Virus record (IMG/VR): IMGVR_UViG_3300002514_000031 | Coordinates: 1-59,495 of that record | Strand: one strand, 5' to 3' | Length of the DNA stretch: 59,495 nucleotides | Source of the DNA: a virus | Lineage: Duplodnaviria > Caudoviricetes | In this document: positions 14,673-48,308 of the stretch, piece by piece | How positions within the stretch are numbered: the stretch's first letter is position 1 | How the letters are laid out: each line of letters starts with the position of its first letter | The notes under the pieces: generated by a model | Seen by the model: the letters and a program-made list of their open reading frames with translations, nothing else | What the model was told of the DNA's origin: nothing | The model's database searches: none | Made by a program: the position numbers and the translations under genes

Positions 14673-14992
14673 GACATTATCATATAGAAGATAGGCATGC
14701 GATTTGTTTGAGTTGTGATCACTCAAGCGAGAATGCGAGATATTGTGACTTGTGGAAAGAGGGTTGTTTTGAAAAAGAACGCACGAAGTTTGAAACAAAA
14801 TGCCCGTTGGGCAAATGGAAAGAAGTGGATGCGAGTTCGGAGTGTAAGTTTCGATCCTGTAGAGGGTGTCACGGACAACCTGAATGCGGTAGTGGTGTAG
14901 GTGGCGATTGTGATTTTGGAATAGGCTCTTTTTATAGATGCGAAGTATGGCGAGATGCTTATGGAGTTGAAAAACTGAATGCTGATAACTGA
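14666..14992 (+). CDS. Cys-rich small protein
   Basis: RHAICLSC, CPLGKW and further Cys clusters. Confidence 0.6.
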   Translation: MVRHYHIEDRHAICLSCDHSSENARYCDLWKEGCFEKERTKFETKCPLGKWKEVDASSECKFRSCRGCHGQPECGSGVGGDCDFGIGSFYRCEVWRDAYGVEKLNADN

Positions 14993-28362: not shown

Positions 28363-29743
28363 TTTTGATCTCCTTTTTGTCATTCCAACTTTGGCCTTCA
28401 TATGCAATCTCTGCGTCTATTCGTAGAGGCACCGAAATCCATTTCCATTTTCGTGCGAGATCTCGGGTCATTATTTTCTTTGCGGCAGCGAGATAATCCT
28501 GAACTTCATCGACAGGAACGTCAGCCACGATGCTATCATGGATCTGTCCTACAATCTTTGCTCCGCTTCGGTTTCTCTCGATCCATTTTTGTAACCTCGT
28601 CAGGCTCCAAAGCAAACAATGAAAAGCGGATCCCTGAATTGGGGCGTTGATCGCTTCGTTCCTTTTGAAAACTCCGTTCTCAATGAAGCCAGTCAGCGTC
28701 TGCCACCCGCCGTTCTTTTGATATTCACTCCACCACTTCTCTTTCCATTCCGCATATACTTTGAAACGACTGCCCCAGAAATTTGCTTCAACTTCTTGGA
28801 TATGTTTTTCAAATGTTCGTGCCTTCGGTTTCTGCTTAGGATCGCAGGCACCCAATCGAGTGATGCCTTGTTCTTTGAGATGGTCGGTGACCAGCGTTCC
28901 GTTCTTCATGCTCAACTTCCCGCTCACGATATGATCCCAGAGATTGCGTGCGCAGTTGATATAGTAGTCTCCATAGAATTGCGGGAAGATGAATTTGTTT
29001 TTGCCTCCGTATCGTAACTGCTTGGTCACTTGATCGGTGTCCATCATATAGCATTCCGCTGCCATGTCTCGGTGCATGTCCAATGAAAGATCTTCTACAT
29101 AGGCCGTCAACCGAGGATCGTGATGATAGCAACAGGAGATCCCCACTTCAATTCCGCTGTAGTCAAGTTCAACCAGAGCGTGGCCAACCCGAGGAATGAA
29201 CGCTTGCCGAATCAGATCGGCAATCCATTCTAACCTGATTGGGATGTTTTGGAAATTAGGTCTTTCACTGCTTCCACGGAAGGTGGAAACGAGATGAAGA
29301 GAGAAGATTGGGTGAAGAAATCCGTCAACAGTTTCCTTTTGGATTCCGTAGAGGTAGGTGGAGAGTGCTTTTTGTAATTTGGAGATCTTGAGAAACCGTT
29401 TGACATAAGGGATTGACAAGCTGGAGAGACTTTCCTCATCAGTTCGAGGCCGTCCAGTAGGTGTTCGATTGACGCACGCGTGCCCCATGCGATTGAAGAG
29501 AACCTCTCCAAGTTGCTCACGGCTGTTGAAGTTGGCACTCCTCCCAAATGTAGTTTTCCAAACTTGAGTGACTTCATCTTCTTCAAGAGAGCGGTACAAG
29601 TTGGCGATGCGTCTTTTTGTTTTCCCAATAGCTCCTTCGAGATAATCCGTATCAATTCTGATTCCATTGGATTCGATCCTGCTGAGGGTTTGGAGTCCTT
29701 CGTGAAGTAGTTTGTACGCTTCGGGGGTGGTGGCTCTACTCAT
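28352..29743 (-). CDS. polA: Family A DNA polymerase, polymerase domain only
   Basis: PNFQNIP, motif A DYSGIE, motif B R..GK....FYG, NAPIQG, motif C QIHDSI. Confidence 0.92.
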   Translation of the reverse strand: MSRATTPEAYKLLHEGLQTLSRIESNGIRIDTDYLEGAIGKTKRRIANLYRSLEEDEVTQVWKTTFGRSANFNSREQLGEVLFNRMGHACVNRTPTGRPRTDEESLSSLSIPYVKRFLKISKLQKALSTYLYGIQKETVDGFLHPIFSLHLVSTFRGSSERPNFQNIPIRLEWIADLIRQAFIPRVGHALVELDYSGIEVGISCCYHHDPRLTAYVEDLSLDMHRDMAAECYMMDTDQVTKQLRYGGKNKFIFPQFYGDYYINCARNLWDHIVSGKLSMKNGTLVTDHLKEQGITRLGACDPKQKPKARTFEKHIQEVEANFWGSRFKVYAEWKEKWWSEYQKNGGWQTLTGFIENGVFKRNEAINAPIQGSAFHCLLWSLTRLQKWIERNRSGAKIVGQIHDSIVADVPVDEVQDYLAAAKKIMTRDLARKWKWISVPLRIDAEIAYEGQSWNDKKEIKIEN

Positions 29744-30971
29744 GACATTTTCCCGTTTGGAGTTTGGAGATCCGTTCCATTTGTATTTGCGCCAGTTTGT
29801 ATTCTAGCAACGCATCCATTCCATTATACAAAAGCAGATCCGTCAAGTTGATCTGATTTATTTTGTTGAACTTGCTTTCGGCGGAGTCTTTGAGATAAGG
29901 TTGAATGTGATCGTCATAAGGAGGCTGTCCCAGTTGGACGTAGGATTGAAACTTGAGTCCAGTGACTCCCGCCTGATTGTTCAGTACATGAGCGGCAAGC
30001 ATCGTGTCCCATTTCCAATTCTTGACTTCCACTCCGAGGATCTTCTGTGTCCACCGATCCTCGAACTTCAAGTTGGCTGCAATCTTTCCGCAATCACTTT
30101 GTAGAAGTTCTTGGGTTGCTTCAATCACTTCTCCCATCCACGGGAAGGCAATTGTTTTGGTTCCTCCCGTACAAACTGCGCATGAATATATTCTGGCTCC
30201 TTTGTATTCGGGCTTCAAGCAGTTCGTCTCATAATCAAAAGCAATATCATCCCCCAGTAGGATCCATTGACGAAGAAGGCGTGCAGCTTCTTCGGGATCG
30301 TGAATGATGCGTATTTCTTTTTGGAGGTCAGGGATCTTTTCCCACGGTTTGGAATGTCTCTTTTTGATAGCGGATCTCAAGTGCTTCCGAAACCAGAGTG
30401 CCAATCCTCGGTTGCGTTCTTCTTCGAGAAGCTGCCACGGGTGATAAGTAGGAACGATCCATGCGTTGGGATTTTGCGAAGGAACAATGAACCCAGCCCA
30501 CTTGGTAGTTGGGCCAGGCGATTCCTTCCAAGTGTGTCCGATGAGACTTTGGATGGCGGTGTTTCCGAGAAGAACGACAACGGTGGGTTTCTTTTCTTCG
30601 ATGACTTGGAACAGGTTGCCACGACAACATAGGATCTCTGCACCGTTCGGCGTTCGTCCTTTCGGTGGACGACATCGCACTGCGTGAGTTCGCCAACAGT
30701 CCTTGTCCAGATGAACGCCCAAAGAGGTGAGTGTTTTTCGTAGGAGCAATCCTGCCTCTCCGCCGAACGAGTCGTGGTTGGCATCTTCTTTTTGATCAGG
30801 AGCTTCACCCACGATCAATATGCTTTTGTCTCCTTCACCTACCATCGGCATTTTAGGACAGGCGCATGAACGAGACAACCCGCATTTCCCGCAGAGAGGA
30901 ACTTTGCTCAATGGTCGGTCATTCGTTTGTAGTAGTTCGGACGTTGTCCAGAATCCCTTACTCATCCTCAA
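29736..30971 (-). CDS. Family 4 uracil-DNA glycosylase-like domain fused to DnaQ-like 3'-5' exonuclease
   Basis: CxxC, VGEAP, CRPP and TYHP, then FDYET, NLKFE, DTMLAAH and YNGMDA. Confidence 0.88.
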   Translation of the reverse strand: MRMSKGFWTTSELLQTNDRPLSKVPLCGKCGLSRSCACPKMPMVGEGDKSILIVGEAPDQKEDANHDSFGGEAGLLLRKTLTSLGVHLDKDCWRTHAVRCRPPKGRTPNGAEILCCRGNLFQVIEEKKPTVVVLLGNTAIQSLIGHTWKESPGPTTKWAGFIVPSQNPNAWIVPTYHPWQLLEEERNRGLALWFRKHLRSAIKKRHSKPWEKIPDLQKEIRIIHDPEEAARLLRQWILLGDDIAFDYETNCLKPEYKGARIYSCAVCTGGTKTIAFPWMGEVIEATQELLQSDCGKIAANLKFEDRWTQKILGVEVKNWKWDTMLAAHVLNNQAGVTGLKFQSYVQLGQPPYDDHIQPYLKDSAESKFNKINQINLTDLLLYNGMDALLEYKLAQIQMERISKLQTGKCHE

Positions 30972-31990: not shown

Positions 31991-32824
31991 TCATCTGTTT
32001 GTGTATATGGTAGCAACCCGTGCTGGGTTGAGTCTCTTCTTGTAAGTTTCCAATCCACGCTGTCCCAGATCTCCTCCGTCATTGACGAGCGGAGGATGAT
32101 CTTTGAACCACTGGGCGTTTCGATAAAAGCACAAACGCAAAAACGCTTGCGCACACGGTTCTCCGTTGTCGATACAAAATCGGAAGTTGGTGAACCTCCA
32201 ATTGTAATCAGCCACGTTCATTCCGATGAGATTGTCATCGCCATCGAGCAAAATCCAGCGGTGGTTTCCGTTGAGAACGTAGTCCACCAAGATGTCTGGA
32301 TCATAGATAGAGTCTTTGCGATCCGCCCACGCCATCAATAGCGTTTCGATCTTCTCATCCAGAGTGGATCCGAGCACGCTCATGGGAACATATTGAAGGT
32401 CAGAATGAGCACGCAAAAAGGTGTTCGTGTTTTTTCGGAAGTTTGCCCAGCGTTGACCGCTCAAGTCGCAAAGAAATTCTTCATGGCGGTAGATGTACTG
32501 ACGATCCAACGCCTCTCCTTCGGACGCATCCAAGAAGCTGCTCCACCATTTGGCTCCTGTATGAATCAAAACATTCTCTTCCTCGAACAGCGGAGGAAAG
32601 AACCAACCGCCATCGTCATCGGTGTAACCGCTCAAGTGTCCCAGACGTGTCCAGACCAATCCTTTGCGCTCAATGTATTCATCGCTGACCCAAAAGTTCG
32701 GTTCAATCTTCTTCTGTCTCAGGTGGAGCCAATAGGTTGAATCCTTTTTTCTTTCCATCACTTTTGCCTTTGCTTCCTTTGCTTGTTCCGAAGCGTTTGT
32801 TTTTGATTTTGCTAATGAGGGCAC
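31991..32824 (-). CDS. DUF2156/MprF C-terminal-like GNAT-fold protein (putative aminoacyl-tRNA-dependent transferase)
   Basis: YIY...DLSGQRWANFRKNTNTF and VNDGGDLGQRGLETYKKRLNP resemble DUF2156 blocks. Confidence 0.7.
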   Translation of the reverse strand: MPSLAKSKTNASEQAKEAKAKVMERKKDSTYWLHLRQKKIEPNFWVSDEYIERKGLVWTRLGHLSGYTDDDGGWFFPPLFEEENVLIHTGAKWWSSFLDASEGEALDRQYIYRHEEFLCDLSGQRWANFRKNTNTFLRAHSDLQYVPMSVLGSTLDEKIETLLMAWADRKDSIYDPDILVDYVLNGNHRWILLDGDDNLIGMNVADYNWRFTNFRFCIDNGEPCAQAFLRLCFYRNAQWFKDHPPLVNDGGDLGQRGLETYKKRLNPARVATIYTNR

Positions 32825-32864
32825 GGCTCACGCCTCCGCTCTTTCTACTTTTTCCGCCCATGTG

Positions 32865-33614
32865 TCATTCATCCTTTCCCAGCTCGTCATATACGCATAA
32901 ACCAATCACGCATTCCATCGGGAAGCGTTTGTCTGTGCTTTCGATCCATGCGATGTTCTTATCAAAACTCCATTCCAGATTATCCGCAAAAGCGTACAAC
33001 GCAGCGAAGTCCTGCGTGCGGATCCCGATGGGCTCGAACTCATCCAACTCTTGCGATGCTACGGCGTTCAATCCCACGCTCTCTTTTTTCGTGATGGTGA
33101 TGATTGAACCTGAATAAATATCTCGCTGGACAATACGCAATTTGCCTTTGCGTGCGGAGAACTCGATGTGGCTCAGGTTCTCGTCCAGTAGTTTGAACAG
33201 ATCGGATCCCAAGATCACGCTGTTGCCTTCGGGCTTCTCGAATTTTTCAAAAAGACTCCGCACATTGTCAGGCGTTCTTTCGGGAGTCTTACAAGATTTG
33301 GTCTTGGTGTATTTGTCGGTGCGGGTAATGAATTTGATGCGGCCACCTTCCTCGAGAAACTCCTTGGATTCATAGTCATCCGCTCGGAAGGAGACGGGAG
33401 AAGCAAAGGTTGAATCCTGCTTCCTCAAAGGGAAATGAATCAGCACCGTAGAGTCCTGATTGAGAATGAAAATCTTTTTGTTCAAGCAATAGATCGTATT
33501 GCGCAACCTCCCGTTCTGCGTCAATGCGGCAGCGTGTGAAAAGATGTCTTCCACGGTCTGATTGATTTTGGTGTTTCTTTTTTTCTTCGCTGCCTTCTTT
33601 TTCTTTTTGGCCAT
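32865..33614 (-). CDS. Hypothetical protein, possibly clamp (PCNA/gp45)-like fold
   Basis: 249 aa alternating helix/strand pattern; fold is an inference only. Confidence 0.35.
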   Translation of the reverse strand: MAKKKKKAAKKKRNTKINQTVEDIFSHAAALTQNGRLRNTIYCLNKKIFILNQDSTVLIHFPLRKQDSTFASPVSFRADDYESKEFLEEGGRIKFITRTDKYTKTKSCKTPERTPDNVRSLFEKFEKPEGNSVILGSDLFKLLDENLSHIEFSARKGKLRIVQRDIYSGSIITITKKESVGLNAVASQELDEFEPIGIRTQDFAALYAFADNLEWSFDKNIAWIESTDKRFPMECVIGLCVYDELGKDE

Positions 33615-33615
33615 G

Positions 33616-35037
33616 TTATAATCCTTTTATGATGTCTTCAAGTATCCGCTCTCTGAAATCGGTGTCTTTGTATTTCCAAACCAATGAACCTTCATCGGTT
33701 CCCGCCACGTGCATTCCTCTTGACCAGCTGTGGGAGTAGGCACTTTGGTTCCCTTCAGTATTCCAAAGTGCCTTCACATCCCTGTACAACGCTGCACTCA
33801 AAAAGCCTCCGTGTTTGTTGACGTAGTTGACGAAGTTTTTCCATGATGTCGGTTTGCCTTTTCGTTTTTGAATATAACGAGCTGCAGTGACAGTGCATCC
33901 ATAATTGAATCCGCCTCGGAACCAATCACCAACCTCGCAACATACCATCTGATTATTGTCGGGAGCATTTCCCATATCGAACGTGGAACAAGAGAAACCT
34001 CGCTCACGAAACATCTGCATGAACTTTCCCAATAGCAAACTTCCCGCTGCTTGCGAGTCGCACCCGAGGAGAAACAATCTGTCCCAATCGTATCCCATGT
34101 TATGAAAACTTTGCCTGATGCCAGGATTCTTTGCGGTGTATGAATAGGTGTCGAAGGTTATATGACGACAACCGATTTCCCAAACATCTTTCATGTATTG
34201 TTCCACGTCCTCTTTTTTGTCGTTCAGAAAAACCAAGAACGGTTCAATGCGAGGCACCACACGCACGCCAGCTTTCACGAGTTTCTCCATTGCACGCAAT
34301 CGTCTGCGATACGAAGGTGCGCCAGGTTCCAGTTCTTTCAGGAACTCATTGTCAGAAGAAATCAAAGTCATATGAACAGCTGCTCGTCCTGCGTTACGTG
34401 CGAGTGCCTCCACATAATCGTCTCGACCAACCAAAGCACTTTTGGTGTTTATCATTACAGGATAAGAAATGTCAGCGAGATACTCCAGAAGTTCCAAGCT
34501 GATTCCTTTTTCTTTTTCATCATCGAGAAAGTCCTCAAAGCGGATCCCGAACCTCATTGGAATTTCCAAGCCTATGGCTTTGGCTACGGCGGCACCCGAA
34601 GCGAAGGAGTGAGGATCCTTTCCACGGTTCTTCATAAGCACATCCAGTTCCTTTTTATACATGGTGGCATTACAATGACGGAACCCCATTGTTTTGGAAT
34701 TGTCGAAGAAGGCCGTGTACAAACTCGCTCGAAAGGCATTGGCGTAGCAATACTTGCAACCGAACGGGCAGAGCAATCCATCCCACGTATCAATATTCAG
34801 AGGCATCGGACACGCCTGAGCACGGCACGATACTTCTACGAAACTGTTCAGCTCTTCGAGGTTCAGGAGACGTTCCTGAGGGATCCATTTACTCTCGGTG
34901 AGTTTGAATTCTTGGTATTGAGTTTTGCGTCCTTTCTCTTTGACGGGTTGGATCTTTCCTTTCTCGTCAACGAGTTTGCGAGTGCGTGGGATCACGTTCG
35001 CAACTATGGATCTCAGTTCATAATAATCCATGGTCAC
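33616..35037 (-). CDS. Radical SAM enzyme, spore photoproduct lyase-like
   Basis: CPFGCKYC motif, INTKS, LEPGAPS..RRL and RIEPF. Confidence 0.88.
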   Translation of the reverse strand: MTMDYYELRSIVANVIPRTRKLVDEKGKIQPVKEKGRKTQYQEFKLTESKWIPQERLLNLEELNSFVEVSCRAQACPMPLNIDTWDGLLCPFGCKYCYANAFRASLYTAFFDNSKTMGFRHCNATMYKKELDVLMKNRGKDPHSFASGAAVAKAIGLEIPMRFGIRFEDFLDDEKEKGISLELLEYLADISYPVMINTKSALVGRDDYVEALARNAGRAAVHMTLISSDNEFLKELEPGAPSYRRRLRAMEKLVKAGVRVVPRIEPFLVFLNDKKEDVEQYMKDVWEIGCRHITFDTYSYTAKNPGIRQSFHNMGYDWDRLFLLGCDSQAAGSLLLGKFMQMFRERGFSCSTFDMGNAPDNNQMVCCEVGDWFRGGFNYGCTVTAARYIQKRKGKPTSWKNFVNYVNKHGGFLSAALYRDVKALWNTEGNQSAYSHSWSRGMHVAGTDEGSLVWKYKDTDFRERILEDIIKGL

Positions 35038-35537
35038 CCTTCCATCATCTTTTTTACTTCGGGCAATTCTTTGTTATTGTTCAGAACAGCTTTTGTGAAA
35101 GGCTTGACGTGATCTTTCAATTGGTATCCCGTTCGGTGACAGTCTTTCATAAGGGTGTCCAATTTGGATGCGGTCTTTTCATAGAAGTTTGGATCACCTT
35201 TTCCGAGTTTTGGAACGAGGCCAAAACCTTTTTTTGATTTCTTCCCCTCTTTCTGTTCGGCAATCATATCCAGCAGGATCATCCCAGCTGCGTAGTTGCT
35301 TTTTGCCGCCAGTAGTGTGTGGGCAACAGTTGAGTCCTTGTCATCTTCTCGTTTTATCACGCAGTGGTTTTTGTTTTTGTAGATGTGTCCGAACTTTGTT
35401 CTGTCTTCCACGTTTGAAAAGACATGCGTGTTCTTCCTATTGACTTTCAGATCGCCAAAAGGCAAAAAGCCATCCACGCCTTCAAACACAAGGGATTCCA
35501 CACGTGTCGCTTTCATACTATATTTTGATCCTGACAT
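35034..35537 (-). CDS. Hypothetical protein
   Basis: First gene after promoter motif; AAGGAG RBS. Confidence 0.7.
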   Translation of the reverse strand: MSGSKYSMKATRVESLVFEGVDGFLPFGDLKVNRKNTHVFSNVEDRTKFGHIYKNKNHCVIKREDDKDSTVAHTLLAAKSNYAAGMILLDMIAEQKEGKKSKKGFGLVPKLGKGDPNFYEKTASKLDTLMKDCHRTGYQLKDHVKPFTKAVLNNNKELPEVKKMMEG

Positions 35538-35555
35538 TTTTATTTCTCCTTCTGT

Positions 35556-35567
35556 CTTATTATAGAT
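35556..35567 (-). promoter_or_regulatory. Phage promoter motif ATCTATAATAAG
   Basis: Exact 12-mer followed by AAGGAG and ATG 35537. Confidence 0.8.
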
Positions 35568-35591
35568 TGATGATATCGAAACAATCTGACT

Positions 35592-36509
35592 TTATGGAAT
35601 AAGGTGCTCAAAACCTTCCGAACCTATCGCATCAAATGTTCCGTCCAGTATTTTCCTGATGTTCTCTTCTATGACATCACGTTTGTTTTTCGTAATGGAT
35701 GTCGCATGCCATCTTTTTTCTTTCCAACCCACGAAGGGTTCTGTTTTCGGTAGTTCTTTTATTTTGTACGTGTTGTCAAATAGTTGTCTGATGTTTCCGT
35801 TGTCTAATGCGCATAGCAAATAATCTCGGCACCAGTGGATCGCATTCAAAACTTCTTCTGGATTCACTGAGGCGGAGAAATGACGAAACTCTATTGTGTC
35901 TGTTTGTAGAAGTTGGCGGAGACTGATTGCCGCCCGAGGTTGAGCGTGCCATAGTGGGCTCCCTTTTTTGCTTTGCGGAACTTCTAACTCAAAGAACCTT
36001 TTGATTGATTTGGCTTGTAGTTGTTTTTGTACTCGGTTTATTGGAATGGAAGTCCAGTGACTCATTCTCATCCACCGCTGACGTTTCACCGCTTCTTTGT
36101 GTTCTCGGGCAGATGGGAAATCGAAGCGAGTGGGAATGGGCAACGGATCCACATGATGATAAATGTCGGTGTTTTCCGATATGAATTTTTGGATCTTTTT
36201 CAGAACGTCCAAGTTGTCTTTCAATCCTGGCATGCGAATGTGAACATGCAAACCCGCTCGATGAGTCGCCACCGCTCTCGGGTGCTTCTTCAAAAACTTT
36301 TGAAGGAGTTTGATTTGTTCCTCGGGTGTTTCCGTTGCGGGTGTATTGATTTCTCCTCCAAATGGATAGCTCTTCAGGGAAGGATCCGTTGCGATCCCGT
36401 TACTGTTACAAGCGTTTGGTTCTGGATCTCTTCCGAAACCTTCCCAACCTTTCCGAGTATCCCAATCACCGAACTCGTGCTCACAACCGTATGTCCATTT
36501 CATATCCAT
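35592..36509 (-). CDS. Amidoligase (glutamine synthetase-like COOH-NH2 ligase)
   Basis: TYGCEHEF, GEINTP, GLHVHI and TIEFR motifs. Confidence 0.82.
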   Translation of the reverse strand: MDMKWTYGCEHEFGDWDTRKGWEGFGRDPEPNACNSNGIATDPSLKSYPFGGEINTPATETPEEQIKLLQKFLKKHPRAVATHRAGLHVHIRMPGLKDNLDVLKKIQKFISENTDIYHHVDPLPIPTRFDFPSAREHKEAVKRQRWMRMSHWTSIPINRVQKQLQAKSIKRFFELEVPQSKKGSPLWHAQPRAAISLRQLLQTDTIEFRHFSASVNPEEVLNAIHWCRDYLLCALDNGNIRQLFDNTYKIKELPKTEPFVGWKEKRWHATSITKNKRDVIEENIRKILDGTFDAIGSEGFEHLIP

Positions 36510-37360
36510 TCTCCTTCATGGCCTATATTCCAAAACAAAATCGGTTCTTCAATTGGTCGGTGCGTTCTCATAAGCCACTGCCACGCCTTGCGGTCATAGA
36601 AAGCATGACACGGAAAAGGGCAAGGCTCCTCGGATCGTTCGGTGTACTCCCATCCCAAGTCAACCAATTTCAAATTCTTTCTTTTAATTCCAGTGATCCC
36701 GCCTTCCACCTTTTTGGCTTTGAAAAGGATCTTCTTTTTTTTCTGAATGACGTTTCCTGTCCGACACATAATGCCGAACGCCTTGCAGCCTTCGGGAAGT
36801 TTCCTCAACAGTCCAGCAAAGATTGTTCCCGATCCTACGCAACACACCACCGTCCGAAGAGTGATCTTTTTCAGAGTCCTTTGAAACTCTCTAGCGGTTT
36901 CGTGAATCGTCTGTTCCAAAGGCAATCCCAAGTCCAGCATCTCCGCTTCTTTTCCAAACTCGTTCCGCAATCTTTTTCTACAGATATGATAATTCACTCT
37001 TGCCATTCCCGCTTCCACTTTGCGGATCGTGGCGTTGCACTTCTTCCAGTGCTTCCGATGGATCTTCAGAACCTCATGCGGTTCTTTGTATTGAGGATCG
37101 TATATGACGGCCTGTAAGCCAAGTTGTTGGCACGCCCATGCAACTCCCCATCCAGCCATGCTGATGCTCGTCTCGGTGTATCCTACCACGCGCAATCCCT
37201 TTTCCTTCCGCTCGGATAAGTAAGTATACACGCCTCTCATTTTGCTGAATGGCGGGGATCCTTCTGGCCCGCAGAGATCTTCCCGCTTGACGTGGATGGT
37301 TCTGCCTCCTGCTTCGTAGGTTTCAATGGGGGTGTTTTTTCTCATCGTCAGTTTCGTCAT
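36500..37360 (-). CDS. PLP-dependent enzyme, fold type II (ACC deaminase/cysteine synthase-like)
   Basis: VKREDL...SKMRG (Schiff-base Lys), VGSGT loop, YDRKAW and LFWNIG. Confidence 0.85.
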   Translation of the reverse strand: MTKLTMRKNTPIETYEAGGRTIHVKREDLCGPEGSPPFSKMRGVYTYLSERKEKGLRVVGYTETSISMAGWGVAWACQQLGLQAVIYDPQYKEPHEVLKIHRKHWKKCNATIRKVEAGMARVNYHICRKRLRNEFGKEAEMLDLGLPLEQTIHETAREFQRTLKKITLRTVVCCVGSGTIFAGLLRKLPEGCKAFGIMCRTGNVIQKKKKILFKAKKVEGGITGIKRKNLKLVDLGWEYTERSEEPCPFPCHAFYDRKAWQWLMRTHRPIEEPILFWNIGHEGEWI

Positions 37361-38421
37361 AACACTCCCGCATCTTTCATAGTATAGAAGTCACCCTTTT
37401 TTCCCGTCAGTATTTTCAAGCCTTCTTCTTTGTTTCCAATCCCTTCCCATGTGGTGTTCTCGATGTGTTCTTTGTCGTGTCCTGCTTGTAGCATACTTTT
37501 CCAATAGTGAGTATTGAAGAGGGACGGGTTGGGCACGTTGATTCCGCAGCAGGTGTTCGCTTGTTCTTTCCAATCGGATCCCGTGTTCACAAAATCAGGA
37601 CACCCCAAACGGATCCCCACGTCATCGGCAATCTCGCATAATTTCTTTTGGATCTTCCGCCAAGGCCGATCCTGATTCATCGTCCAGATCTTCTCGATGT
37701 CCAATCCAATTGAATGGAACCGTTTGGCTACGTGGTCATTGAGATGAAGATTATATGTATTGTAGCTCTCCACGCCGATGTCTTTCAACCTGAGCAGGAG
37801 ATCTCGGAACTGTTCGGTGGTATGCAATCCTGGAATGAAGGGTTCACCGTTGACTCCCACAGCATATCCTGTTCGCACCCAGCGTCTCATTATGCGGAAC
37901 CGCTTGTCAATGGGCGTGGTTCTTTTTCGTTCCAGCGTTTCCCAATCCCATTCGGCGCCAGGAGAAATCACGGGCATCACCGTGAGTAGTTTTTTGTCTC
38001 GAGCTTCTTGAAGAAGAGGTTCGCACAAAACCAAGTTCCCGAGGAAGTGGGTTTGAATTACGAACGTCCAATTCAAATCTATCAAGTGCTGAAGGATCCG
38101 CATGGATACTTTGTGTTTGATTTCGGCGGGTTGGAAAGGATCCGTTTTGTTGCCGAAGCGTATTGTTTTTTTGAGGCGGAGTGCGTTTGCCAAACTGGTT
38201 TTGGGATTCTTGTTTTTCAATCCCGCTTCCAGCTTTCGGCGGATCTGTTCGGGATCCGCTGGCCGAAGATCTTGCCCCCACGTCCGATTCAACTTGCGCA
38301 AATAGCAATGGTGGCAATCCGCTTCGCAGTTCCAATAACTGTCAATAGAAAAAGGCAGTGGACAATAGAGGCAATCACCTCTAATGCCCACTGCCGATTT
38401 GTATGTTTTGGTGTCTGCCAT
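37357..38421 (-). CDS. Radical SAM enzyme, SPL-like, paralogue of 33616..35037
   Basis: CEADCHHC motif, RFGNKTDPFQPAE, GEPFIPG, C-terminal CCG. Confidence 0.88.
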   Translation of the reverse strand: MADTKTYKSAVGIRGDCLYCPLPFSIDSYWNCEADCHHCYLRKLNRTWGQDLRPADPEQIRRKLEAGLKNKNPKTSLANALRLKKTIRFGNKTDPFQPAEIKHKVSMRILQHLIDLNWTFVIQTHFLGNLVLCEPLLQEARDKKLLTVMPVISPGAEWDWETLERKRTTPIDKRFRIMRRWVRTGYAVGVNGEPFIPGLHTTEQFRDLLLRLKDIGVESYNTYNLHLNDHVAKRFHSIGLDIEKIWTMNQDRPWRKIQKKLCEIADDVGIRLGCPDFVNTGSDWKEQANTCCGINVPNPSLFNTHYWKSMLQAGHDKEHIENTTWEGIGNKEEGLKILTGKKGDFYTMKDAGVL

Positions 38422-38422
38422 A

Positions 38423-39046
38423 CTACAGAGCAACAACTTTCCCGACAACACGAGCGTTGTCACCATCGACTTCAATGAGGCCGAGGATTTGGCATTCCAA
38501 CATTACGCGTTTTGTATGCCAGACAGCTTCTTTGTCGTTTCCACGGCCTCCGTGCGCCATGTACTCTTCGTTGGTCTTTTCTGCGATCTCGTTGACCGTG
38601 AATTTCTTTTTCTTCAGGTTGGCAATCGCTTCAATGATCAACTTCTGACGTGTTGGTTTCTTCTTCGCAACTTTCTTCGCAGTTTTCTTCGGTTCGGGTT
38701 CCTTTTTCTTTGCTGCTTTTTTCGCTGCCTTCTTCGCAACTTTCTTCGCAACTTTCTTCGCAGTTTTCTTCGGTTCGGGTTCCTTTTTCTTTGCTGCTTT
38801 TTTCGCTGCCTTCTTCTTCACGGGTTTCTTATCTTCTACGATCTCCAAGGCATTGCCTTCGCTGATCGTGATCTCGATGTCCTCCAGATTGGTGCGCTGT
38901 TCTTCATTCAGCTTTTCGAGGTCAGTGTCCTCGCTCTTGGCGAGAACTTTACATTTGTTGGCCAGCTGGGTGTCACTCCATTTGTAGGCCGTTCCATATC
39001 CTAATGCCGTGAAAATTTCAACAACTTCTTTTTTAGTGATAATCAT
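38423..39046 (-). CDS. Histone H1-like Lys/Ala-rich DNA-binding protein
   Basis: KKAAKK/KKVAKK repeats and C-terminal winged-helix-like segment; ATG 39046 with AAGGAG RBS. Confidence 0.7.
   Translation of the reverse strand: MIITKKEVVEIFTALGYGTAYKWSDTQLANKCKVLAKSEDTDLEKLNEEQRTNLEDIEITISEGNALEIVEDKKPVKKKAAKKAAKKKEPEPKKTAKKVAKKVAKKAAKKAAKKKEPEPKKTAKKVAKKKPTRQKLIIEAIANLKKKKFTVNEIAEKTNEEYMAHGGRGNDKEAVWHTKRVMLECQILGLIEVDGDNARVVGKVVAL
38661..38816 (-). repeat. Direct repeat, 81-bp period, encoding KKAAKKAAKKKEPEPKKTAKKVAKK
   Basis: Two identical ~75-bp copies at 38661 and 38742. Confidence 0.9.
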
Positions 39047-39096
39047 TTTTGGTCTCCTTGTGTTAGTGTTTTTGATTGTCACGTTTTTGCTTCCGT

Positions 39097-39108
39097 CTTA
39101 TTATAGAT
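39097..39108 (-). promoter_or_regulatory. Phage promoter motif ATCTATAATAAG
   Basis: Exact 12-mer; the match to the copy at 51626 continues through ACGGAAGCAAAAA. Confidence 0.8.
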
Positions 39109-42370: not shown

Positions 42371-43723
42371 TCATTTCTCCTCTAATGAATGGATCAGAGC
42401 ATCATACAAATTGAAATCGTTCTTGACGTTCTTCCCGTCCATCGTGTCAGCAATTACGTTTTGTTTTTTCTGAATCAACTCGCATAGCATTTCTTCTATC
42501 GTTCCTTTGGCTACGATGTAGGTGATCTGGGCAGCGTTCTTTTGTCCGATACGGTGGATGCGATCTTCGGCCTGAGTATGGTTCGCTGGAACCCAATCGA
42601 GTTCCGCAAACAGCACGTTACTCGATGCGGTGAGGGTGATACCCGTTCCTGCGGCAATGACGTTACCAAAAAACAAACGGATCTTTTTTTGGTGCTGGAA
42701 GGAGTTGACTGCTTTCTGTTTGTTGAGCGGTGAGGTACTTCCATCCAACACCACCGAGTTCCTCGGATACAAGTCATGAAGTCCACGCACAACTTTCTTA
42801 TGAACGCCGAACACCACCAGCTTTTCATCCGTCTCTTCTAAGAAGCTGTCAATCCATTTTTTGACGGCCTCCATTTTCAAGTCCATCGCTTTCCTTTTCA
42901 AGTATCCCATTTTGTTCAACACCAGAGCCTTCTTCACTCGGTGAACTTTGGAGGGTTTGTTTTCGTGTAGCCAGCGGAGGAAGTTGTCACGCACTTTTTT
43001 GTACTCGGTCAACTTCACCGATATGGGAACCACGGTGCGGATCTTGTCAGGGAGTTCTTTCAGAACGTCCTTTTTGCGTCTGCGTATCAACATGTGTCGA
43101 TTGAGTCTGGTGTGAAGTTCTTCGAGGTGTTCCGCTCCTTTGTATATCCACTTGCCGTTCTTGAGTTCGGGTTTGCAATAACGGGCAGCGTAGGCAAGGA
43201 AGTCATTGAATACTTCGGGATACAGCAGGTGAATCATCGGCCAAAGTTCGGCAGGACAATTCAACATTGGCGTTCCCGAGATCGCAATGATATGTTTGAA
43301 TCGAGTTGCTAATGCTAGCAGCATCTGCGTTCGTTGAGCGGATCGGTTCTTTGCGTAATGACACTCATCAATGATGAGGGTTTTGAACCCGCCCGTCCGC
43401 AGCTTCTTTCCCCACGCATTCAGGATCTTGTAATTGATAATCGTGATGGGGAGATCAATTTTGATATTTTCTTTTTTGGCGGTCATCCCGTTCAACACTC
43501 GACTGAGCATGCCCGCTTTGGTGGAGGCTTCTTTTTCCCATACCCATTTCAAATGAGCAGGGCACACCACCAAAGCAGGCAAGGCAATCTCGGGATTCTC
43601 TTTCACCCACCATAACGCTTGAAGGGTTTTCCCGAGTCCCATTTCATCGGCCAGCAACGCTCGTCCTTTGAAGTGGGAAATCCATCGCACTCCTTTCTTT
43701 TGATATTTGAAAAGGATGCTCAT
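42371..43723 (-). CDS. SNF2-family helicase (HARP-like)
   Basis: ADEMGLGKT, DECH, SGTP and QAEDRIHRIGQ motifs. Confidence 0.93.
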   Translation of the reverse strand: MSILFKYQKKGVRWISHFKGRALLADEMGLGKTLQALWWVKENPEIALPALVVCPAHLKWVWEKEASTKAGMLSRVLNGMTAKKENIKIDLPITIINYKILNAWGKKLRTGGFKTLIIDECHYAKNRSAQRTQMLLALATRFKHIIAISGTPMLNCPAELWPMIHLLYPEVFNDFLAYAARYCKPELKNGKWIYKGAEHLEELHTRLNRHMLIRRRKKDVLKELPDKIRTVVPISVKLTEYKKVRDNFLRWLHENKPSKVHRVKKALVLNKMGYLKRKAMDLKMEAVKKWIDSFLEETDEKLVVFGVHKKVVRGLHDLYPRNSVVLDGSTSPLNKQKAVNSFQHQKKIRLFFGNVIAAGTGITLTASSNVLFAELDWVPANHTQAEDRIHRIGQKNAAQITYIVAKGTIEEMLCELIQKKQNVIADTMDGKNVKNDFNLYDALIHSLEEK

Positions 43724-44259
43724 TGAAGCACTTCCCGTATTTCATCAACAACAGCTCGGAAGCGATGCGCATTCCATCCTTCTTTTTTGATCGTCTCTTC
43801 TCGCACGGAAGATCTGATGTTTGCAAAAGATCCTCCTTTGCTATCTATGATTGTTTGGATTTCATTTGGCGTATTCAAAACCAAATCCAAAACCGTTTGA
43901 GTGTCTTCACTCACGGCATCATAGACATGCGTCCAAAACTCTCTCGGTTCTTCTGATGCTATTGGATCCAGTTCTCCTCCTCGTTGGAATCGGTTACAAT
44001 ACCGTGCCGCTCTCCGCCACGCATCAAACAAATGCGTTCGAACGTAACTGACCAGAAGAGTAGTGAAGGCGTTTCCATAAGAAGGGTCAAAGGCTTTGTA
44101 TGCTTTTACAAAAGCCAAACACGCTTCCGAGTATAGTTCATCCAGAGATAGAAGGGAGCCGTGTCGCTCGATGAATCGGTGACACATGTCGTGTAGAAGT
44201 TGTTTGACATCTCGGTACGTTTGGTCAAAAGCATCCGTGGTAATGGTTGTACATATCAT
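43720..44259 (-). CDS. Sigma-70 region 2-like phage sigma factor
   Basis: DELYSEACLAFVKAYKAFDPSYGNAFTT pattern. Confidence 0.7.
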   Translation of the reverse strand: MICTTITTDAFDQTYRDVKQLLHDMCHRFIERHGSLLSLDELYSEACLAFVKAYKAFDPSYGNAFTTLLVSYVRTHLFDAWRRAARYCNRFQRGGELDPIASEEPREFWTHVYDAVSEDTQTVLDLVLNTPNEIQTIIDSKGGSFANIRSSVREETIKKEGWNAHRFRAVVDEIREVLQ

Positions 44260-45995: not shown

Positions 45996-47297
45996 TCATT
46001 TCATTTCCACTATGTCTCCAAAGGGAACCTTCGGAAGTTCGTGACGCCACGGGCAGGGAGTCGCAACCCACAGCGTTGGATAGTCAGGCTCCTCTTCAGG
46101 AAAGCGTCCATCCAAGTCCGTCAGATATATCAAACACGCTGGTTCAATATCTTCCTTCTCAATCCATTCAAACACGGGAGTGAATCGAGTTCCACCGCCA
46201 CCAATCGGTTTCGGTTCAATCGGCATATCCGCTCGGGTGAAAGTCTCGGTTCCTCGGACTTCATAATCACAATACACAACTCGCACTGTCGTGTCATAAT
46301 GTTCGAGGATGGAGGAGGCTTCCTTCGCAAACTTGCTCAGCGTCTGCGTGTCAACCGATCCGCTGGTATCAATCGCCAGCACGATCTCGGGCAACTCCTC
46401 GCTAACCAAACTCGGAAGAACCAACCCACGTCCAATGTAACGCTTGGATGGTCTGTTCCAGTTGTAGTCATTGCGTGCGGTATTCTCAACGAAGTCTCGC
46501 AACAAAACGTCCCATGAGGTTTCGGGATTCACGATCTCATCAACCATTCGTTTGAGATCTCCCTGACCCGATCCGATTTGTCGAGAGGCTTGAGAAGTGG
46601 CTACACGCCATTCATCTTTCAGCTCTTCGATTGCTTCTTTGGAGAAGTCATCGCCAACTTCGGGATCTTCTACACCACCGCATCCGCCAGGATCCATTGT
46701 ATCACCTTCTGCGGAGCCATCTTGACCTTCGGTGGCCTCGGAGCCATCTTCAGATCCTTCGTTGGTCTCGGAGCCATTCTCATCGCTCTCATCGCTCTCA
46801 TCGCTCTCGTTGTCTCGGTCATCGGAGGATCCTGCCTGACCTTCATTGTCCTCTTCGTTCTCATCGGTATCGTCTTTGTCTTCATCAGCGTCAGGTTTCG
46901 GATTGGTATTGCTCAACCTCTCATACCATTCTTCCGCACTCAACAGCTCATCCGTCATCAACGCTCCCTTCGGGAGTTTGAATCCTGCTTTGATCAGGAT
47001 CGGGTTGATGGAGTAGTCACACGCTTGATTCCACAGCTTCATATCTCGGTTCCCACGTCTCCAGAAGTGACCGTTGCTACAGTGCATAACCTCGTGAGCG
47101 TAGCATCCCATGAGTTCGGGATCAGGCTGCGCATCAACAAATGAAGGACTCCATCTGATTCTCTTCCCGTCCACCATCGCCGTTCCAGCTTTCTCATCCA
47201 GTACATTTGCGAGCTTCATCGACAACGTGCCGAAGAAGCTATGATCAAGCACCAGATGCGTCCGTGCCTTCGTGATTCTTTTCATTATGTTTTCCAT
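45996..47297 (-). CDS. DUF2201-like metallopeptidase plus VWA domain protein
   Basis: HEVMH, acidic linker, MIDAS IDTSGS, GGGGT and YLTD motifs. Confidence 0.88.
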   Translation of the reverse strand: MENIMKRITKARTHLVLDHSFFGTLSMKLANVLDEKAGTAMVDGKRIRWSPSFVDAQPDPELMGCYAHEVMHCSNGHFWRRGNRDMKLWNQACDYSINPILIKAGFKLPKGALMTDELLSAEEWYERLSNTNPKPDADEDKDDTDENEEDNEGQAGSSDDRDNESDESDESDENGSETNEGSEDGSEATEGQDGSAEGDTMDPGGCGGVEDPEVGDDFSKEAIEELKDEWRVATSQASRQIGSGQGDLKRMVDEIVNPETSWDVLLRDFVENTARNDYNWNRPSKRYIGRGLVLPSLVSEELPEIVLAIDTSGSVDTQTLSKFAKEASSILEHYDTTVRVVYCDYEVRGTETFTRADMPIEPKPIGGGGTRFTPVFEWIEKEDIEPACLIYLTDLDGRFPEEEPDYPTLWVATPCPWRHELPKVPFGDIVEMK

Positions 47298-47375
47298 TGT
47301 ACTATCCTTTCCAGTTAGGTTTTCAATTCACGGTTCATCGCAATCCTCCCCGTGGGGAGGAGAGCGGCAAATCAT

Positions 47376-48269: not shown

Positions 48270-48308
48270 GATAAGTTCCTTTCAAAGTCTTTTTGGTTTT
48301 TGGTTTCG

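What the first reader, a model, noticed from the sequence alone, without database searches (positions are those of the whole stretch)
31991..39046. Candidate new phage DNA hypermodification pathway: two radical SAM enzymes, PLP enzyme, amidoligase and aminoacyl-tRNA transferase, without the known entry enzymes
Seen: eight co-oriented genes between DnaB and the clamp/polymerase genes, in two promoter-headed units. Unit 1 is histone-like protein, rSAM, fold-II PLP enzyme, amidoligase. Unit 2 is a 167-aa unknown, rSAM, a 249-aa unknown and a DUF2156-like GNAT, running on into clamp, UDG-exonuclease, polymerase and clamp loader. Known: thymidine hypermodification in phages such as ViI and M6 uses PLP decarboxylases and, in M6, a radical SAM isomerase, but starts from 5-hydroxymethyluracil via a dUMP hydroxymethylase, a 5hmU DNA kinase and an amino acid:DNA transferase. 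I recognise none of these here, nor TET/JBP, 7-deazaguanine (Que/DpdA) or PurZ genes. Inference: SPL-like radical chemistry activates a base directly in DNA, and the ligase, tRNA-dependent transferase and PLP enzyme build an amino-acid-derived side chain.
Basis: partly seen in the sequence, partly recalled or inferred. Interest (0 to 1): 0.92.

Follow-up and report, generated by a model that had tools for sequence, protein, structure and literature searches.

The report
Kinase-free phage DNA hypermodification module
An uncultured phage carries, among its replication genes, a widespread but unstudied enzyme set that most likely adds an amino-acid-derived group to its DNA without the starter enzymes of all known pathways; this phage has added an amidoligase borrowed from those known pathways.

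Summary
In detail: eight co-oriented minus-strand genes lie at 31991-39082, in two units headed by a repeated promoter-like motif. Their domain calls are confirmed by Pfam, NCBIfam and PHROGs. A ninth gene was missed, a 52-aa micro-ORF at 32703-32861.

The 249-aa "unknown" folds as a PCNA-like clamp. The 277-aa protein folds as a DUF2156/MprF/FemX-type tandem GNAT.

rSAM1, rSAM2, the PCNA-like protein, the micro-peptide and the GNAT form a core that is syntenic in 80 related IMG/VR loci. It always sits between DnaB and the beta clamp. The slot between the two rSAM genes varies.

The PLP enzyme is a full-length homologue of phage M6 gp52, the DNA-acting decarboxylase. The amidoligase and the 167-aa ORF are absent from all 80 relatives. 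Homologues of this amidoligase sit in records with amino acid:DNA transferase (44 of 50).

5-hmU kinase, ADDT and TET/JBP are absent from this contig and from 20 of 20 relatives, nine of them at least 90% complete. Thymidylate synthase is absent here and present in 3 of 20.

Best reading (0.6): post-replicative DNA base hypermodification with a new radical-SAM and tRNA-type front end. The chemistry is untested.

This scan has already found the same module on at least ten other genomes. I found no paper describing it.

The parts
39097..39108 (-). Promoter-like motif ATCTATAATAAG heading unit 1
   Evidence: One of 7 exact copies in the contig, against 0.09 expected by shuffling.
38423..39082 (-). 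Lys/Ala-rich protein (likely start at the ATG at 39046). It belongs to a family that occupies the slot between DnaB and rSAM1 in relatives. Function unknown.
   Evidence: A perfect 81-bp tandem duplication, 1.9 copies, lies at 38661-38816. Of 80 related loci, 15 hold distinct ORFs labelled as this protein by blastp. 37 more hold an unlabelled ORF family in the same slot (cluster C0) that it matches only weakly (E about 2e-4 to 8e-4). No Pfam or PDB match was informative.
37357..38475 (-). rSAM1: radical SAM enzyme, a distant homologue of the M6 gp53 glycinyl-thymine isomerase. Core gene.
   Evidence: C50xxxC54xxC57 is invariant across 41 sequences, together with C38, C292, C309 and C310. NCBIfam PA0069 family, E 7.9e-14. 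hhalign against M6 gp53: probability 96.2%, E 2.1e-9, over 256 columns. Present in 73 of 80 related loci.
36500..37360 (-). Fold-type II PLP enzyme, homologue of the M6 gp52 DNA-acting decarboxylase. Optional tailoring gene.
   Evidence: PALP, E 2.5e-12. phrog_7093, E 4e-47. 35.8% identity over 95% of its length to M6 gp52. Lys40 aligns with gp52 Lys36 in an invariant FSK motif. Present in 43 of 80 loci. It falls in a subclade specific to this phage group.
35592..36509 (-). Amidoligase_2 enzyme, a strain-specific tailoring gene whose homologues sit in ADDT-type thymidine hypermodification clusters
   Evidence: PF12224, 30.4 bits, above its cut-off. Found in 0 of 80 related loci. Homologues lie in records with ADDT in 44 of 50 cases and with the 5-hmU kinase family in 25 of 50. 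One homologue, P0230, is fused to the kinase family PF18748.
35556..35567 (-). Promoter-like motif heading unit 2
   Evidence: Exact copy of ATCTATAATAAG between the amidoligase stop and the start of the 167-aa ORF.
35034..35537 (-). 167-aa orphan ORF of unknown function
   Evidence: No Pfam, PHROG or NCBIfam match. No relative in the 80 related loci or the 50 amidoligase loci. Not related to the small accessory family of the relatives. The Atlas gave nothing usable.
33616..35037 (-). rSAM2: radical SAM enzyme, paralogue of rSAM1. The most conserved core gene and the candidate entry enzyme.
   Evidence: Radical_SAM, E 2e-8. PA0069 family, E 9.9e-17. C90xxxC94xxC97 plus C76, C122, C350, C366 and C367 are invariant in 22 sequences. 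56-72% identity to the best 120 homologues listed, out of 538 scored hits. hhalign against the rSAM1 profile: 98%, E 2.7e-13.
32865..33614 (-). PCNA-like two-domain clamp-fold protein with a Lys-rich N-terminal tail. Core gene, additional to the replicative beta clamp.
   Evidence: AlphaFold model pLDDT 90.2. Foldseek against the PDB: PCNA and 9-1-1 clamps, E 3.7e-9, TM 0.57. Present in 76 of 80 loci. Absent from 5 of 5 records of phages that carry UDG-exonuclease homologues (two of them also a clamp homologue) but ADDT-type clusters. Positive control 5 of 5.
32703..32861 (-). 52-aa micro-ORF, MGGKSRKSGGVSRALI..., with an invariant N-terminus.
   Evidence: It starts 4 nt after the clamp-like gene's stop. 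The motif GGKSRK is present in 76 of 85 related loci. The 9 misses all end before this position. There were 0 hits in six frames of 51 control loci. G9, S12 (60 of 61) and L15 are conserved in 61 distinct sequences.
31991..32824 (-). DUF2156/MprF-C/FemX-like tandem GNAT (probable true start at Met23, about 32758). A candidate aminoacyl-tRNA-dependent transferase. Core gene.
   Evidence: AlphaFold model pLDDT 90.8, with residues 1-30 low. Foldseek: 2hqy 2.6e-10, aa-PG synthases and MprF about 1e-8, the aminoacyl-tRNA-dependent peptide synthase Sbb17 1e-5, FemX 5e-5. Present in 69 of 80 loci.

Best explanation
This is a post-replicative DNA base hypermodification module with a new front end.

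Shown:
- A core of rSAM1, rSAM2, a PCNA-like clamp protein, a roughly 50-aa peptide with an invariant N-terminus (GGKSRKxGxVS..L) and a DUF2156-type transferase is conserved. It is syntenic between DnaB and the beta clamp in a large group of uncultured phages.
- The slot between the two rSAM genes carries interchangeable tailoring genes.
- Three tailoring families found in the cluster here or in its relatives also serve the known thymidine pathways: a gp52-like PLP decarboxylase, a PaMx11 gp47-like flavin enzyme and this amidoligase family.
- The known starters (dUMP hydroxymethylase or TET/JBP, 5-hmU DNA kinase, amino acid:DNA transferase) are absent.

Inferred:
- rSAM2, working with the peptide and the tRNA-type transferase on DNA held by the PCNA-like protein, installs an amino-acid (probably glycine-like) adduct on a base, most likely the thymine methyl group.
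- rSAM1, which is gp53-like, rearranges the adduct.
- The PLP enzyme decarboxylates it to a primary amine.
- In this phage the amidoligase then joins that amine, or a remaining carboxylate, to a further acid or amine in an ATP-dependent step.
- The purpose would be protection of the phage DNA from host nucleases.
For: 1. PLP enzyme. It is 35.8% identical over 95% of its length to M6 gp52. The Schiff-base lysine aligns. PMC8989533 shows that gp52 decarboxylates C-alpha-glycinylthymine in DNA (passages read).
2. rSAM1. Its profile matches M6 gp53, the DNA-acting rSAM isomerase, at 96.2% and E 2.1e-9.
3. Amidoligase. Its homologues lie in records with ADDT in 44 of 50 cases, including 11 of 12 that are at least 90% complete. 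The kinase family is present in 25 of 50. One homologue is fused to the kinase family. In the closest locus with context, L087, the order is kinase, rSAM, ADDT, PLP, amidoligase.
4. Relatives carry a flavin enzyme in the variable slot. Its hit in phage PA_LZ03 is the gene between the PaMx11_46 and PaMx11_49 homologues, which is the gp47 position.
5. Core synteny in 80 loci: rSAM2 80, clamp-like protein 76, rSAM1 73, GNAT 69. The peptide motif is in 76 of 85 loci, and every miss is a truncated locus.
6. In L117, a phage with homologous DnaB, beta clamp and UDG-exonuclease (34-40% identity), the same slot holds amidoligase, rSAM, FAD enzyme, ADDT, TET/JBP and a kinase.
7. Starters are absent. 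There are 0 hits at E<=10 in this contig for PF18724, PF18748, PF00303 and PF12851. ADDT, the kinase and TET/JBP are each found in 0 of 20 relatives. Thymidylate synthase is found in 3 of 20. Positive controls in M6 worked.
8. Folds: the PCNA-like protein and the aminoacyl-tRNA-transferase-like protein.
9. No tRNA genes and no nucleotide-metabolism families were seen among the 28 window ORFs scanned, 8, 6, 10 and 4 in the six-frame family searches. This fits modification of ordinary bases after replication.
Against: - No chemistry is shown, and no modified nucleoside is known for any member. There is no cultured relative: tblastn of rSAM2 against 50,697 phage records gave only 3 weak partial hits.
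- The contig is 82% complete.
- This phage's PLP enzyme belongs to a subclade separate from gp52, split with 100% support (quick tree only). Its substrate may therefore differ.
- rSAM2 has no significant similarity to gp53 (21.8%). Neither rSAM profile finds SPL or any other rSAM in the PDB.
- The genome still strongly avoids TTAA (18 seen, 287 expected), CGCG (16 against 184) and CTAG (22 against 230). Some relatives avoid GATC. Any protection is therefore not general.
- A small conserved peptide together with rSAMs, a tRNA-type transferase and tailoring enzymes is also the signature of peptide natural-product pathways.
- The earlier notes of this scan reach the same reading, but they are not independent evidence.
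Confidence: 0.6

Rival explanations
1. The module matures the small conserved peptide, or the Lys/Ala-rich protein, into a modified peptide or a small molecule. This would be a RiPP- or scaffold-peptide-type pathway: rSAM maturases, aminoacyl-tRNA-dependent extension, then PLP, flavin, reductase and amidoligase tailoring. The product would act on the host or the replisome and would not be attached to DNA.
For: - A roughly 50-aa peptide with an invariant N-terminus is present in every locus that covers its position.
- The FemX/Sbb17-type fold normally acts on peptide or small-molecule amines.
- The variable tailoring set (methyltransferase-like, aldo-keto reductase, FAD, PLP, amidoligase) would also suit a natural-product cluster.
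Against: - The PLP, flavin and amidoligase families are the ones tied to DNA-level thymidine pathways.
- rSAM1 matches the DNA-acting gp53.
- A dedicated PCNA-fold protein and a fixed position inside the replisome operon point to DNA.
- No protease or exporter was seen in the cluster.
Confidence: 0.13
2. The two rSAM enzymes are DNA repair enzymes of the 'DNA repair photolyase' (COG1533) type. They would serve the replisome of phages from anoxic habitats, with the clamp-like protein as their platform. The PLP and amidoligase genes would be unrelated passengers.
For: - JGI names several homologues 'DNA repair photolyase'.
- The rSAMs hit the PA0069/Rv2578c families.
- The genes lie next to the clamp, exonuclease and polymerase genes.
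- Five loci have no gene between rSAM1 and rSAM2.
Against: - The hits fall far below the family cut-offs (51-61 bits against 360-430).
- The SPL model scores only E 0.093.
- Tailoring genes of hypermodification type are inserted exactly between the two rSAM genes in most loci.
- An invariant peptide and a tRNA-type transferase have no place in a repair scheme.
Confidence: 0.08
3. The module modifies RNA (for example host tRNA) or free nucleotides before replication, and does not act on DNA after replication.
For: - The transferase fold binds aminoacyl-tRNA.
- Elongator-type chemistry, which pairs a radical SAM domain with an acetyltransferase fold, acts on tRNA. This is mentioned in the discussion of PMC13219725.
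- No direct evidence here ties the rSAM enzymes to DNA.
Against: - The PCNA-fold partner.
- Homology to enzymes shown to work on DNA polymers.
- No nucleotide kinase, dNTP-handling or tRNA genes were found in the contig.
Confidence: 0.07

Closest known systems
5-NedU pathway of Pseudomonas phage M6 (Yuavirus): gp58 dUMP hydroxymethylase, gp54 5-hmdU DNA kinase, gp51 amino acid:DNA transferase, gp53 rSAM isomerase, gp52 PLP decarboxylase (PMC8989533)
   Same: A gp52-type PLP enzyme with full-length homology and its lysine conserved. A gp53-related rSAM enzyme, here rSAM1. The genes cluster among replication genes.
   Different: No hydroxymethylase, kinase or transferase is present. There is a second rSAM enzyme, a PCNA-like protein, a conserved micro-peptide and a DUF2156-type transferase, none of which M6 has. 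The PLP enzyme belongs to a separate subclade.
Metagenomic ADDT-type thymidine hypermodification clusters carrying amidoligase genes (noted without function in PMC8989533, section 21)
   Same: The same amidoligase family, 29-59% identical. PLP lies directly upstream of the amidoligase in 7 of 50 such loci, as it does here.
   Different: Those clusters hold ADDT (44 of 50 records) and often the kinase. Their loci (up to 10 kb each side) hold none of the rSAM1, PCNA-like or GNAT families, and one of 50 has a weak rSAM2-profile hit at 54 bits. Here the amidoligase sits in a cluster that has neither ADDT nor kinase.
Mom of phage Mu: a GNAT enzyme that transfers glycine from Gly-tRNA to N6 of adenine in dsDNA (PMC13219725)
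   Same: It is the precedent for charged tRNA serving as donor in a phage DNA modification. Both proteins are of the GNAT superfamily.
   Different: Mom acts alone and is a single GNAT domain. Here the protein is a tandem GNAT of the DUF2156/FemX type and is always accompanied by two rSAM enzymes, a clamp-like protein and a peptide. I did not compare the two sequences.
Spore photoproduct lyase and the COG1533 'DNA repair photolyase' rSAM families (PA0069, Rv2578c)
   Same: A CxxxCxxC radical SAM core. The NCBIfam families hit at 1e-10 to 1e-16.
   Different: Scores lie far below the family cut-offs. The SPL model itself scores E 0.093. No PDB sequence match was found. Extra invariant cysteines are present.
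FemX / MprF C-terminal domain / Sbb17 aminoacyl-tRNA-dependent transferases
   Same: The tandem-GNAT fold: Foldseek E 2.6e-10 to 5e-5, TM up to 0.64.
   Different: The protein is soluble, phage-encoded and sits in a replisome operon. Sequence identity is 8-16%. The Pfam match is below its cut-off. Donor and acceptor are unknown.

Membership tests
5-hmdU-based thymidine hypermodification pathway (M6 / ViI / PaMx11 type) | A source of 5-hmdU: a dUMP hydroxymethylase (Thymidylat_synt fold) or a TET/JBP dioxygenase | tested here: not met
   PF00303 and PF12851: 0 six-frame hits at E<=10 in the contig. Relatives: thymidylate synthase in 3 of 20 (one canonical, at 414 bits), TET/JBP in 0 of 20. The contig is only 82% complete. 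The TET/JBP search had no deliberate positive control, though the same Pfam model did hit L117.
5-hmdU-based thymidine hypermodification pathway (M6 / ViI / PaMx11 type) | 5-hmdU DNA kinase (PF18748) | tested here: not met
   0 hits in the contig. 0 of 20 relatives, 9 of them at least 90% complete. The positive control in M6 was found at 65.8 bits.
5-hmdU-based thymidine hypermodification pathway (M6 / ViI / PaMx11 type) | Amino acid:DNA transferase (ADDT / aGPT-Pplase, PF18724) | tested here: not met
   0 hits in the contig. 0 of 20 relatives. The positive control in M6 was found at 159.7 bits. Other ADDT clades were not searched separately.
5-hmdU-based thymidine hypermodification pathway (M6 / ViI / PaMx11 type) | Tailoring enzymes that act on the base-linked amino acid (gp52-type PLP decarboxylase, gp53-type rSAM) | tested here: met
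   PLP enzyme: 35.8% identity, E 1.4e-51, to gp52. rSAM1 profile against gp53: 96.2% probability.
5-hmdU-based thymidine hypermodification pathway (M6 / ViI / PaMx11 type) | A hypermodified thymidine in virion DNA | not testable with these tools
   This needs nucleoside LC-MS of phage DNA, and no cultured member was found.
Radical SAM superfamily, COG1533/SPL-like branch | CxxxCxxC cluster-binding motif and family-level sequence match | tested here: inconclusive
   The motif is invariant in both paralogues. Pfam Radical_SAM passes for rSAM2 (35 bits against 29.5) but not for rSAM1 (12.2 bits). The PA0069 and Rv2578c models are hit far below their cut-offs. No PDB hit was found.
DUF2156 / aminoacyl-tRNA-dependent transferases (MprF C-terminal, FemX, Sbb17) | Tandem GNAT fold of this family | tested here: met
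   Model pLDDT 90.8. The top Foldseek hits are 2hqy, aa-PG synthases, MprF, Sbb17 and FemX. The Pfam LPG_synthase_C match is below its cut-off, 22.8 against 27.5 bits.
DUF2156 / aminoacyl-tRNA-dependent transferases (MprF C-terminal, FemX, Sbb17) | Use of aminoacyl-tRNA as the acyl donor | not testable with these tools
   This needs an enzyme assay.
PCNA-type sliding clamps | Two-domain clamp fold of about 250 residues | tested here: met
   Model pLDDT 90.2. PCNA and 9-1-1 chains hit at E 3.7e-9 and TM 0.52-0.58. All 500 counted matches have E<=0.001.
PCNA-type sliding clamps | Ring assembly and loading on DNA | not tested
   The only complex job went to a different question and gave no verdict.
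Amidoligase_2 (PF12224) | Pfam match above the gathering score | tested here: met
   30.4 bits against a cut-off of 22, E 4.5e-7.
Mom-type tRNA-dependent DNA modification | Homology to Mom and a single-enzyme system | not tested
   No Mom sequence was compared. The system here has several components. The resemblance is by mechanism only (PMC13219725).

The most novel reading that the evidence does not exclude
The module performs direct radical C-H functionalisation of thymine in double-stranded DNA, with no 5-hmU intermediate.

The invariant Gly-Gly N-terminus of the micro-peptide would be the glycine donor. An rSAM enzyme couples the peptide's N-terminal glycine to the thymine methyl radical on DNA held by the PCNA-like ring. 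The gp53-like rSAM rearranges the link, and the glycine is left on the base. The FemX-like transferase then recharges the peptide with glycine from Gly-tRNA.

This would be a catalytic peptide-carrier cycle that links translation to DNA chemistry. In this phage the product would be further decarboxylated and amidated.
Probability: 0.12. Interest if true: 0.95.

Novelty: new variant of a known kind. Interest (0 to 1): 0.8.

Why it matters
All thymidine hypermodification pathways described in the papers I read start from 5-hydroxymethyluracil, a DNA kinase and an amino acid:DNA transferase. The published metagenome survey was seeded on the kinase (PMC8989533, section 21), so it could not see this group.

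If this module modifies DNA, it shows three things:
- a second, independent way to start hypermodification;
- a way that is common in uncultured phages (123 IMG/VR contigs, hundreds of protein clusters);
- new DNA-acting radical SAM chemistry, and possibly a second case of charged tRNA feeding a DNA modification.

This particular phage adds one point. The amidoligase of the kinase-type clusters has been recruited into the kinase-free module. That argues that both routes converge on chemically similar intermediates.

Such enzymes would also be useful as tools for site-directed DNA functionalisation.

Tried and rejected
- DNA similarity of the cluster to 50,697 phage records: no match.
- Single-protein scan of IMG/VR with rSAM2: nothing. 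The alignment-based scan worked.
- Scan of GTDB genomes: only 5 MAG contigs, from five different phyla. This gives no host assignment, and I read these contigs as binned phage DNA.
- Complex prediction with rSAM2, the PCNA-like protein and the GNAT as partner: score 0.00, no verdict. This is evidence neither for nor against binding.
- The 167-aa ORF: no relatives and no fold lead.
- The Lys/Ala-rich family: no informative Pfam or PDB match. I rejected 'histone' as a family assignment.
- Profile searches of rSAM1 and rSAM2 against PDB sequences found no rSAM enzyme.
- I considered that the 249-aa protein is simply the replicative clamp. I rejected this because a separate beta clamp (PDB profile E 6.8e-16) and a clamp loader are present. 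The PCNA-like gene is also missing from phages with related replication genes that lack the rSAM genes.
- I considered that PLP and amidoligase arrived together as one cassette. I rejected this because the PLP enzyme groups with those of this phage group, not with the PLP enzymes next to amidoligases elsewhere. That tree is the quick one; the careful search did not finish.
- GGATCC over-representation (77 against 12.8) is real, but I could not link it to the module.
- Supplementary files of the papers were not opened. Figure 2 and the supplements of PMC8989533 may show clusters that I could not see.

Full report
**What is there**

The window is a whole IMG/VR virus contig of 59,495 bp. It is linear, and CheckV estimates it at 82% complete. 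Genes from about 19.9 kb to 51 kb run on the minus strand.

Downstream come a UDG plus 3'-5' exonuclease fusion, a family A polymerase and a clamp loader.

The motif ATCTATAATAAG occurs exactly seven times in the contig, against 0.09 expected. Two copies lie just upstream of the Lys/Ala-rich gene and of the 167-aa ORF, so the 'two units' description holds.

**Domain calls**

- The PLP enzyme is PALP (E 2.5e-12) and phrog_7093 (E 4e-47).
- The ligase is Amidoligase_2, above its cut-off.
- rSAM2 passes Pfam Radical_SAM. rSAM1 does not.
- Both rSAMs hit the PA0069 and Rv2578c radical SAM families (1e-10 to 1e-16), though far below those models' cut-offs.
- The spore photoproduct lyase model itself scores only E 0.093.
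- Profile searches of either paralogue against PDB sequences find no rSAM enzyme.
- 'SPL-like' is therefore a loose label here.
- The two enzymes are paralogues (hhalign 98%, E 2.7e-13). Each has an invariant CxxxCxxC plus further invariant cysteines.

**The two 'unknowns' that could be folded**

I used alignments of 45 sequences taken from related loci.

- The 277-aa protein gave a model with pLDDT 90.8. Its best PDB matches are the DUF2156 protein 2hqy (2.6e-10), aminoacyl-phosphatidylglycerol synthases and MprF (about 1e-8), the aminoacyl-tRNA-dependent peptide synthases Sbb17 and Sba18, and FemX.
- The 249-aa protein gave a model with pLDDT 90.2. It matches PCNA and 9-1-1 clamps (E 3.7e-9, TM 0.52-0.58). 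It is additional to the beta clamp.

**A missed gene**

A lead from earlier notes of this scan was a 'tiny invariant peptide'. I tested it here.

- Four nucleotides after the clamp-like gene's stop begins a 52-codon ORF at 32703-32861, MGGKSRKSGGVSRALI....
- It overlaps, in another frame, the first 22 codons of the long GNAT ORF. Those codons are poorly modelled and lie outside the family consensus.
- The motif GGKSRK is found on the right strand in 76 of 85 related loci.
- The nine misses are all loci that end before this position.
- It is found in none of 51 control loci read in six frames.
- In 61 distinct sequences, G9 and L15 are invariant and S12 is present in 60.
- The tails vary. Many end in a hydrophobic pair followed by acidic residues.

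**How widespread, and what is core**

- rSAM2 has 538 scored homologues. The best 120 are 56-72% identical, on contigs of up to 79 kb, and some carry inteins.
- An alignment-based scan of IMG/VR found 123 contigs, of which 80 loci were kept.
- tblastn of the window's proteins against these 80 loci, many of them truncated, found:

| Protein | Loci with a hit (of 80) |
|---|---|
| rSAM2 | 80 |
| PCNA-like | 76 |
| rSAM1 | 73 |
| GNAT | 69 |
| beta clamp | 64 |
| DnaB | 63 |
| PLP | 43 |
| Lys/Ala-rich protein | 8 |
| amidoligase | 0 |
| 167-aa ORF | 0 |

- The gene order is constant: DnaB, a roughly 230-aa protein, rSAM1, a variable slot, rSAM2, PCNA-like, peptide, GNAT, beta clamp, exonuclease, polymerase, clamp loader.
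- Between DnaB and the beta clamp, mostly in the variable slot, relatives hold:
  - a PLP enzyme
  - a weakly methyltransferase-like protein (19 loci)
  - an aldo-keto reductase (11 loci)
  - an N6/N4 DNA methylase (13 loci)
  - DUF362 (7 loci)
  - a FAD oxidoreductase (3 loci)
  - a PAPS-reductase-like gene
  - small unknown ORFs
- In five loci the variable slot is empty.

This window is therefore the conserved core plus PLP, with an amidoligase and an orphan ORF added.

**Links to known DNA hypermodification**

- The PLP enzyme is 35.8% identical over 95% of its length to gp52 of Pseudomonas phage M6. Its Lys40 aligns with gp52 Lys36.
- PMC8989533 (passages and section 21 read) shows that gp52 decarboxylates C-alpha-glycinylthymine in DNA to give 5-(2-aminoethyl)deoxyuridine. 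It also shows that gp53 is the rSAM isomerase.
- The rSAM1 profile matches gp53 at 96.2% probability. rSAM2 does not match it.
- The FAD enzyme of the relatives hits the gene at the gp47 position of PaMx11-type phages.
- The amidoligase family was recovered in 50 IMG/VR loci:
  - None of these loci has the rSAM1, PCNA-like or GNAT families. One locus (L125) has a weak rSAM2-profile hit (54 bits).
  - Their records contain ADDT in 44 of 50 cases.
  - Their records contain the kinase family in 25 of 50 at E<=1e-3, and 8 of 50 above the cut-off.
  - One homologue is fused to the kinase domain.
- In L117, a phage whose DnaB, beta clamp and UDG-exonuclease are 34-40% identical to those here, the same slot holds amidoligase, rSAM, FAD enzyme, ADDT, TET/JBP and a P-loop kinase.
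- The PCNA-like and GNAT families are absent from five such records. The positive control for the PCNA-like search was 5 of 5.

**Absence of the starters**

- Six-frame searches of the contig with ADDT, the 5-hmU kinase, thymidylate synthase and TET/JBP gave nothing at E<=10.
- Because the contig is incomplete, I repeated the searches on the whole records of 20 relatives. Nine of these are at least 90% complete, and five have terminal repeats.
- Results in the 20 relatives: kinase 0, ADDT 0, TET/JBP 0, thymidylate synthase 3.
- Both key models found their genes in M6.

**Reading**

The most economical explanation is a DNA hypermodification module. Its tailoring enzymes are shared with the thymidine pathways, but its front end is different.

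That the target is thymine, that the adduct is glycine-like, and the order of steps are all inferences. They rest on which tailoring families are recruited and on the gp53 relationship.

The PLP tree (quick method only) puts this phage's enzyme in a subclade of 26 sequences specific to this phage group. That subclade is separated with full support from the one holding gp52, seven ADDT-type enzymes and six others from this group. The substrate may therefore differ from that of gp52. The tree also shows that the amidoligase was acquired separately from the PLP gene.

**Against, and rivals**

- Nothing chemical is shown.
- There is no cultured relative.
- A conserved small peptide with rSAM enzymes, a tRNA-type transferase and tailoring enzymes could equally describe a peptide natural-product pathway.
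- The genome avoids TTAA, CGCG and CTAG strongly, so it still behaves as if exposed to restriction.

**Literature**

Searches found the M6/ViI/PaMx11 papers, a 2026 diaminopropane-thymine paper and the Mom papers. I opened the 2026 diaminopropane-thymine paper only for a term search. None describes an rSAM, PCNA-like and DUF2156 module.

Mom (PMC13219725; abstract and discussion read) is a precedent for charged tRNA as donor to DNA.

**Earlier findings of this scan**

The same module was reported on at least ten other genomes, with the same reading. These are AI notes and are not independent evidence.

I reached the PCNA, GNAT, M6 and absence results before reading them. I took from them only the lead to the micro-peptide, which I then tested.

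New here are the amidoligase link to ADDT-type clusters and the positional swap seen in L117.

Noticed in passing
whole window: GGATCC occurs 77 times against 12.8 expected from base composition, and GGATC and GATCC are each over 3-fold enriched. In contrast TTAA (18 against 287), CGCG (16 against 184) and CTAG (22 against 230) are strongly avoided. Related loci do not share the GGATCC excess. Some of them almost lack GATC (L002 1 against 67, L022 0 against 68).
   Followed up: partly
38661-38816: A perfect 81-bp tandem duplication (1.9 copies, 100% match) lies inside the Lys/Ala-rich gene.
   Followed up: partly
27408, 35556, 39097, 44277 (-); 51258, 51626, 58881 (+): Seven exact copies of ATCTATAATAAG, against 0.09 expected, plus one copy with one mismatch at 14928. 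This is probably the phage's own promoter. A sigma-70 region 2 protein is encoded at 43720-44259.
   Followed up: partly
L117 7818-16488: A 137-kb phage contig with homologous DnaB, beta clamp and UDG-exonuclease carries, in the same slot, a TET/JBP, kinase and ADDT cluster with rSAM, FAD and amidoligase genes.
   Followed up: yes
P0052, P0113; L077 and L081 rSAM2 ORFs of 612-622 aa: Some rSAM2 homologues carry intein (Hint) domains.
   Followed up: no
P0230, P0233, P0237: Amidoligase homologues fused to the 5-hmdU kinase domain (P0230), or carrying a low-molecular-weight phosphatase domain (P0233, P0237).
   Followed up: no
L041, L056, L079: A third rSAM2-like paralogue of 504-520 aa lies between the GNAT and the beta clamp in some relatives.
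   Followed up: no
45996-49298: A DUF2201 metallopeptidase-like plus VWA-like protein and an AAA ATPase, separated by a 297-aa ORF with no Pfam match, upstream of the replication genes.
   Followed up: no
29736-30971: A UDG-superfamily domain is fused to the 3'-5' exonuclease, and the family A polymerase is encoded as a separate gene. In several relatives the two are one ORF of 830-905 aa.
   Followed up: no
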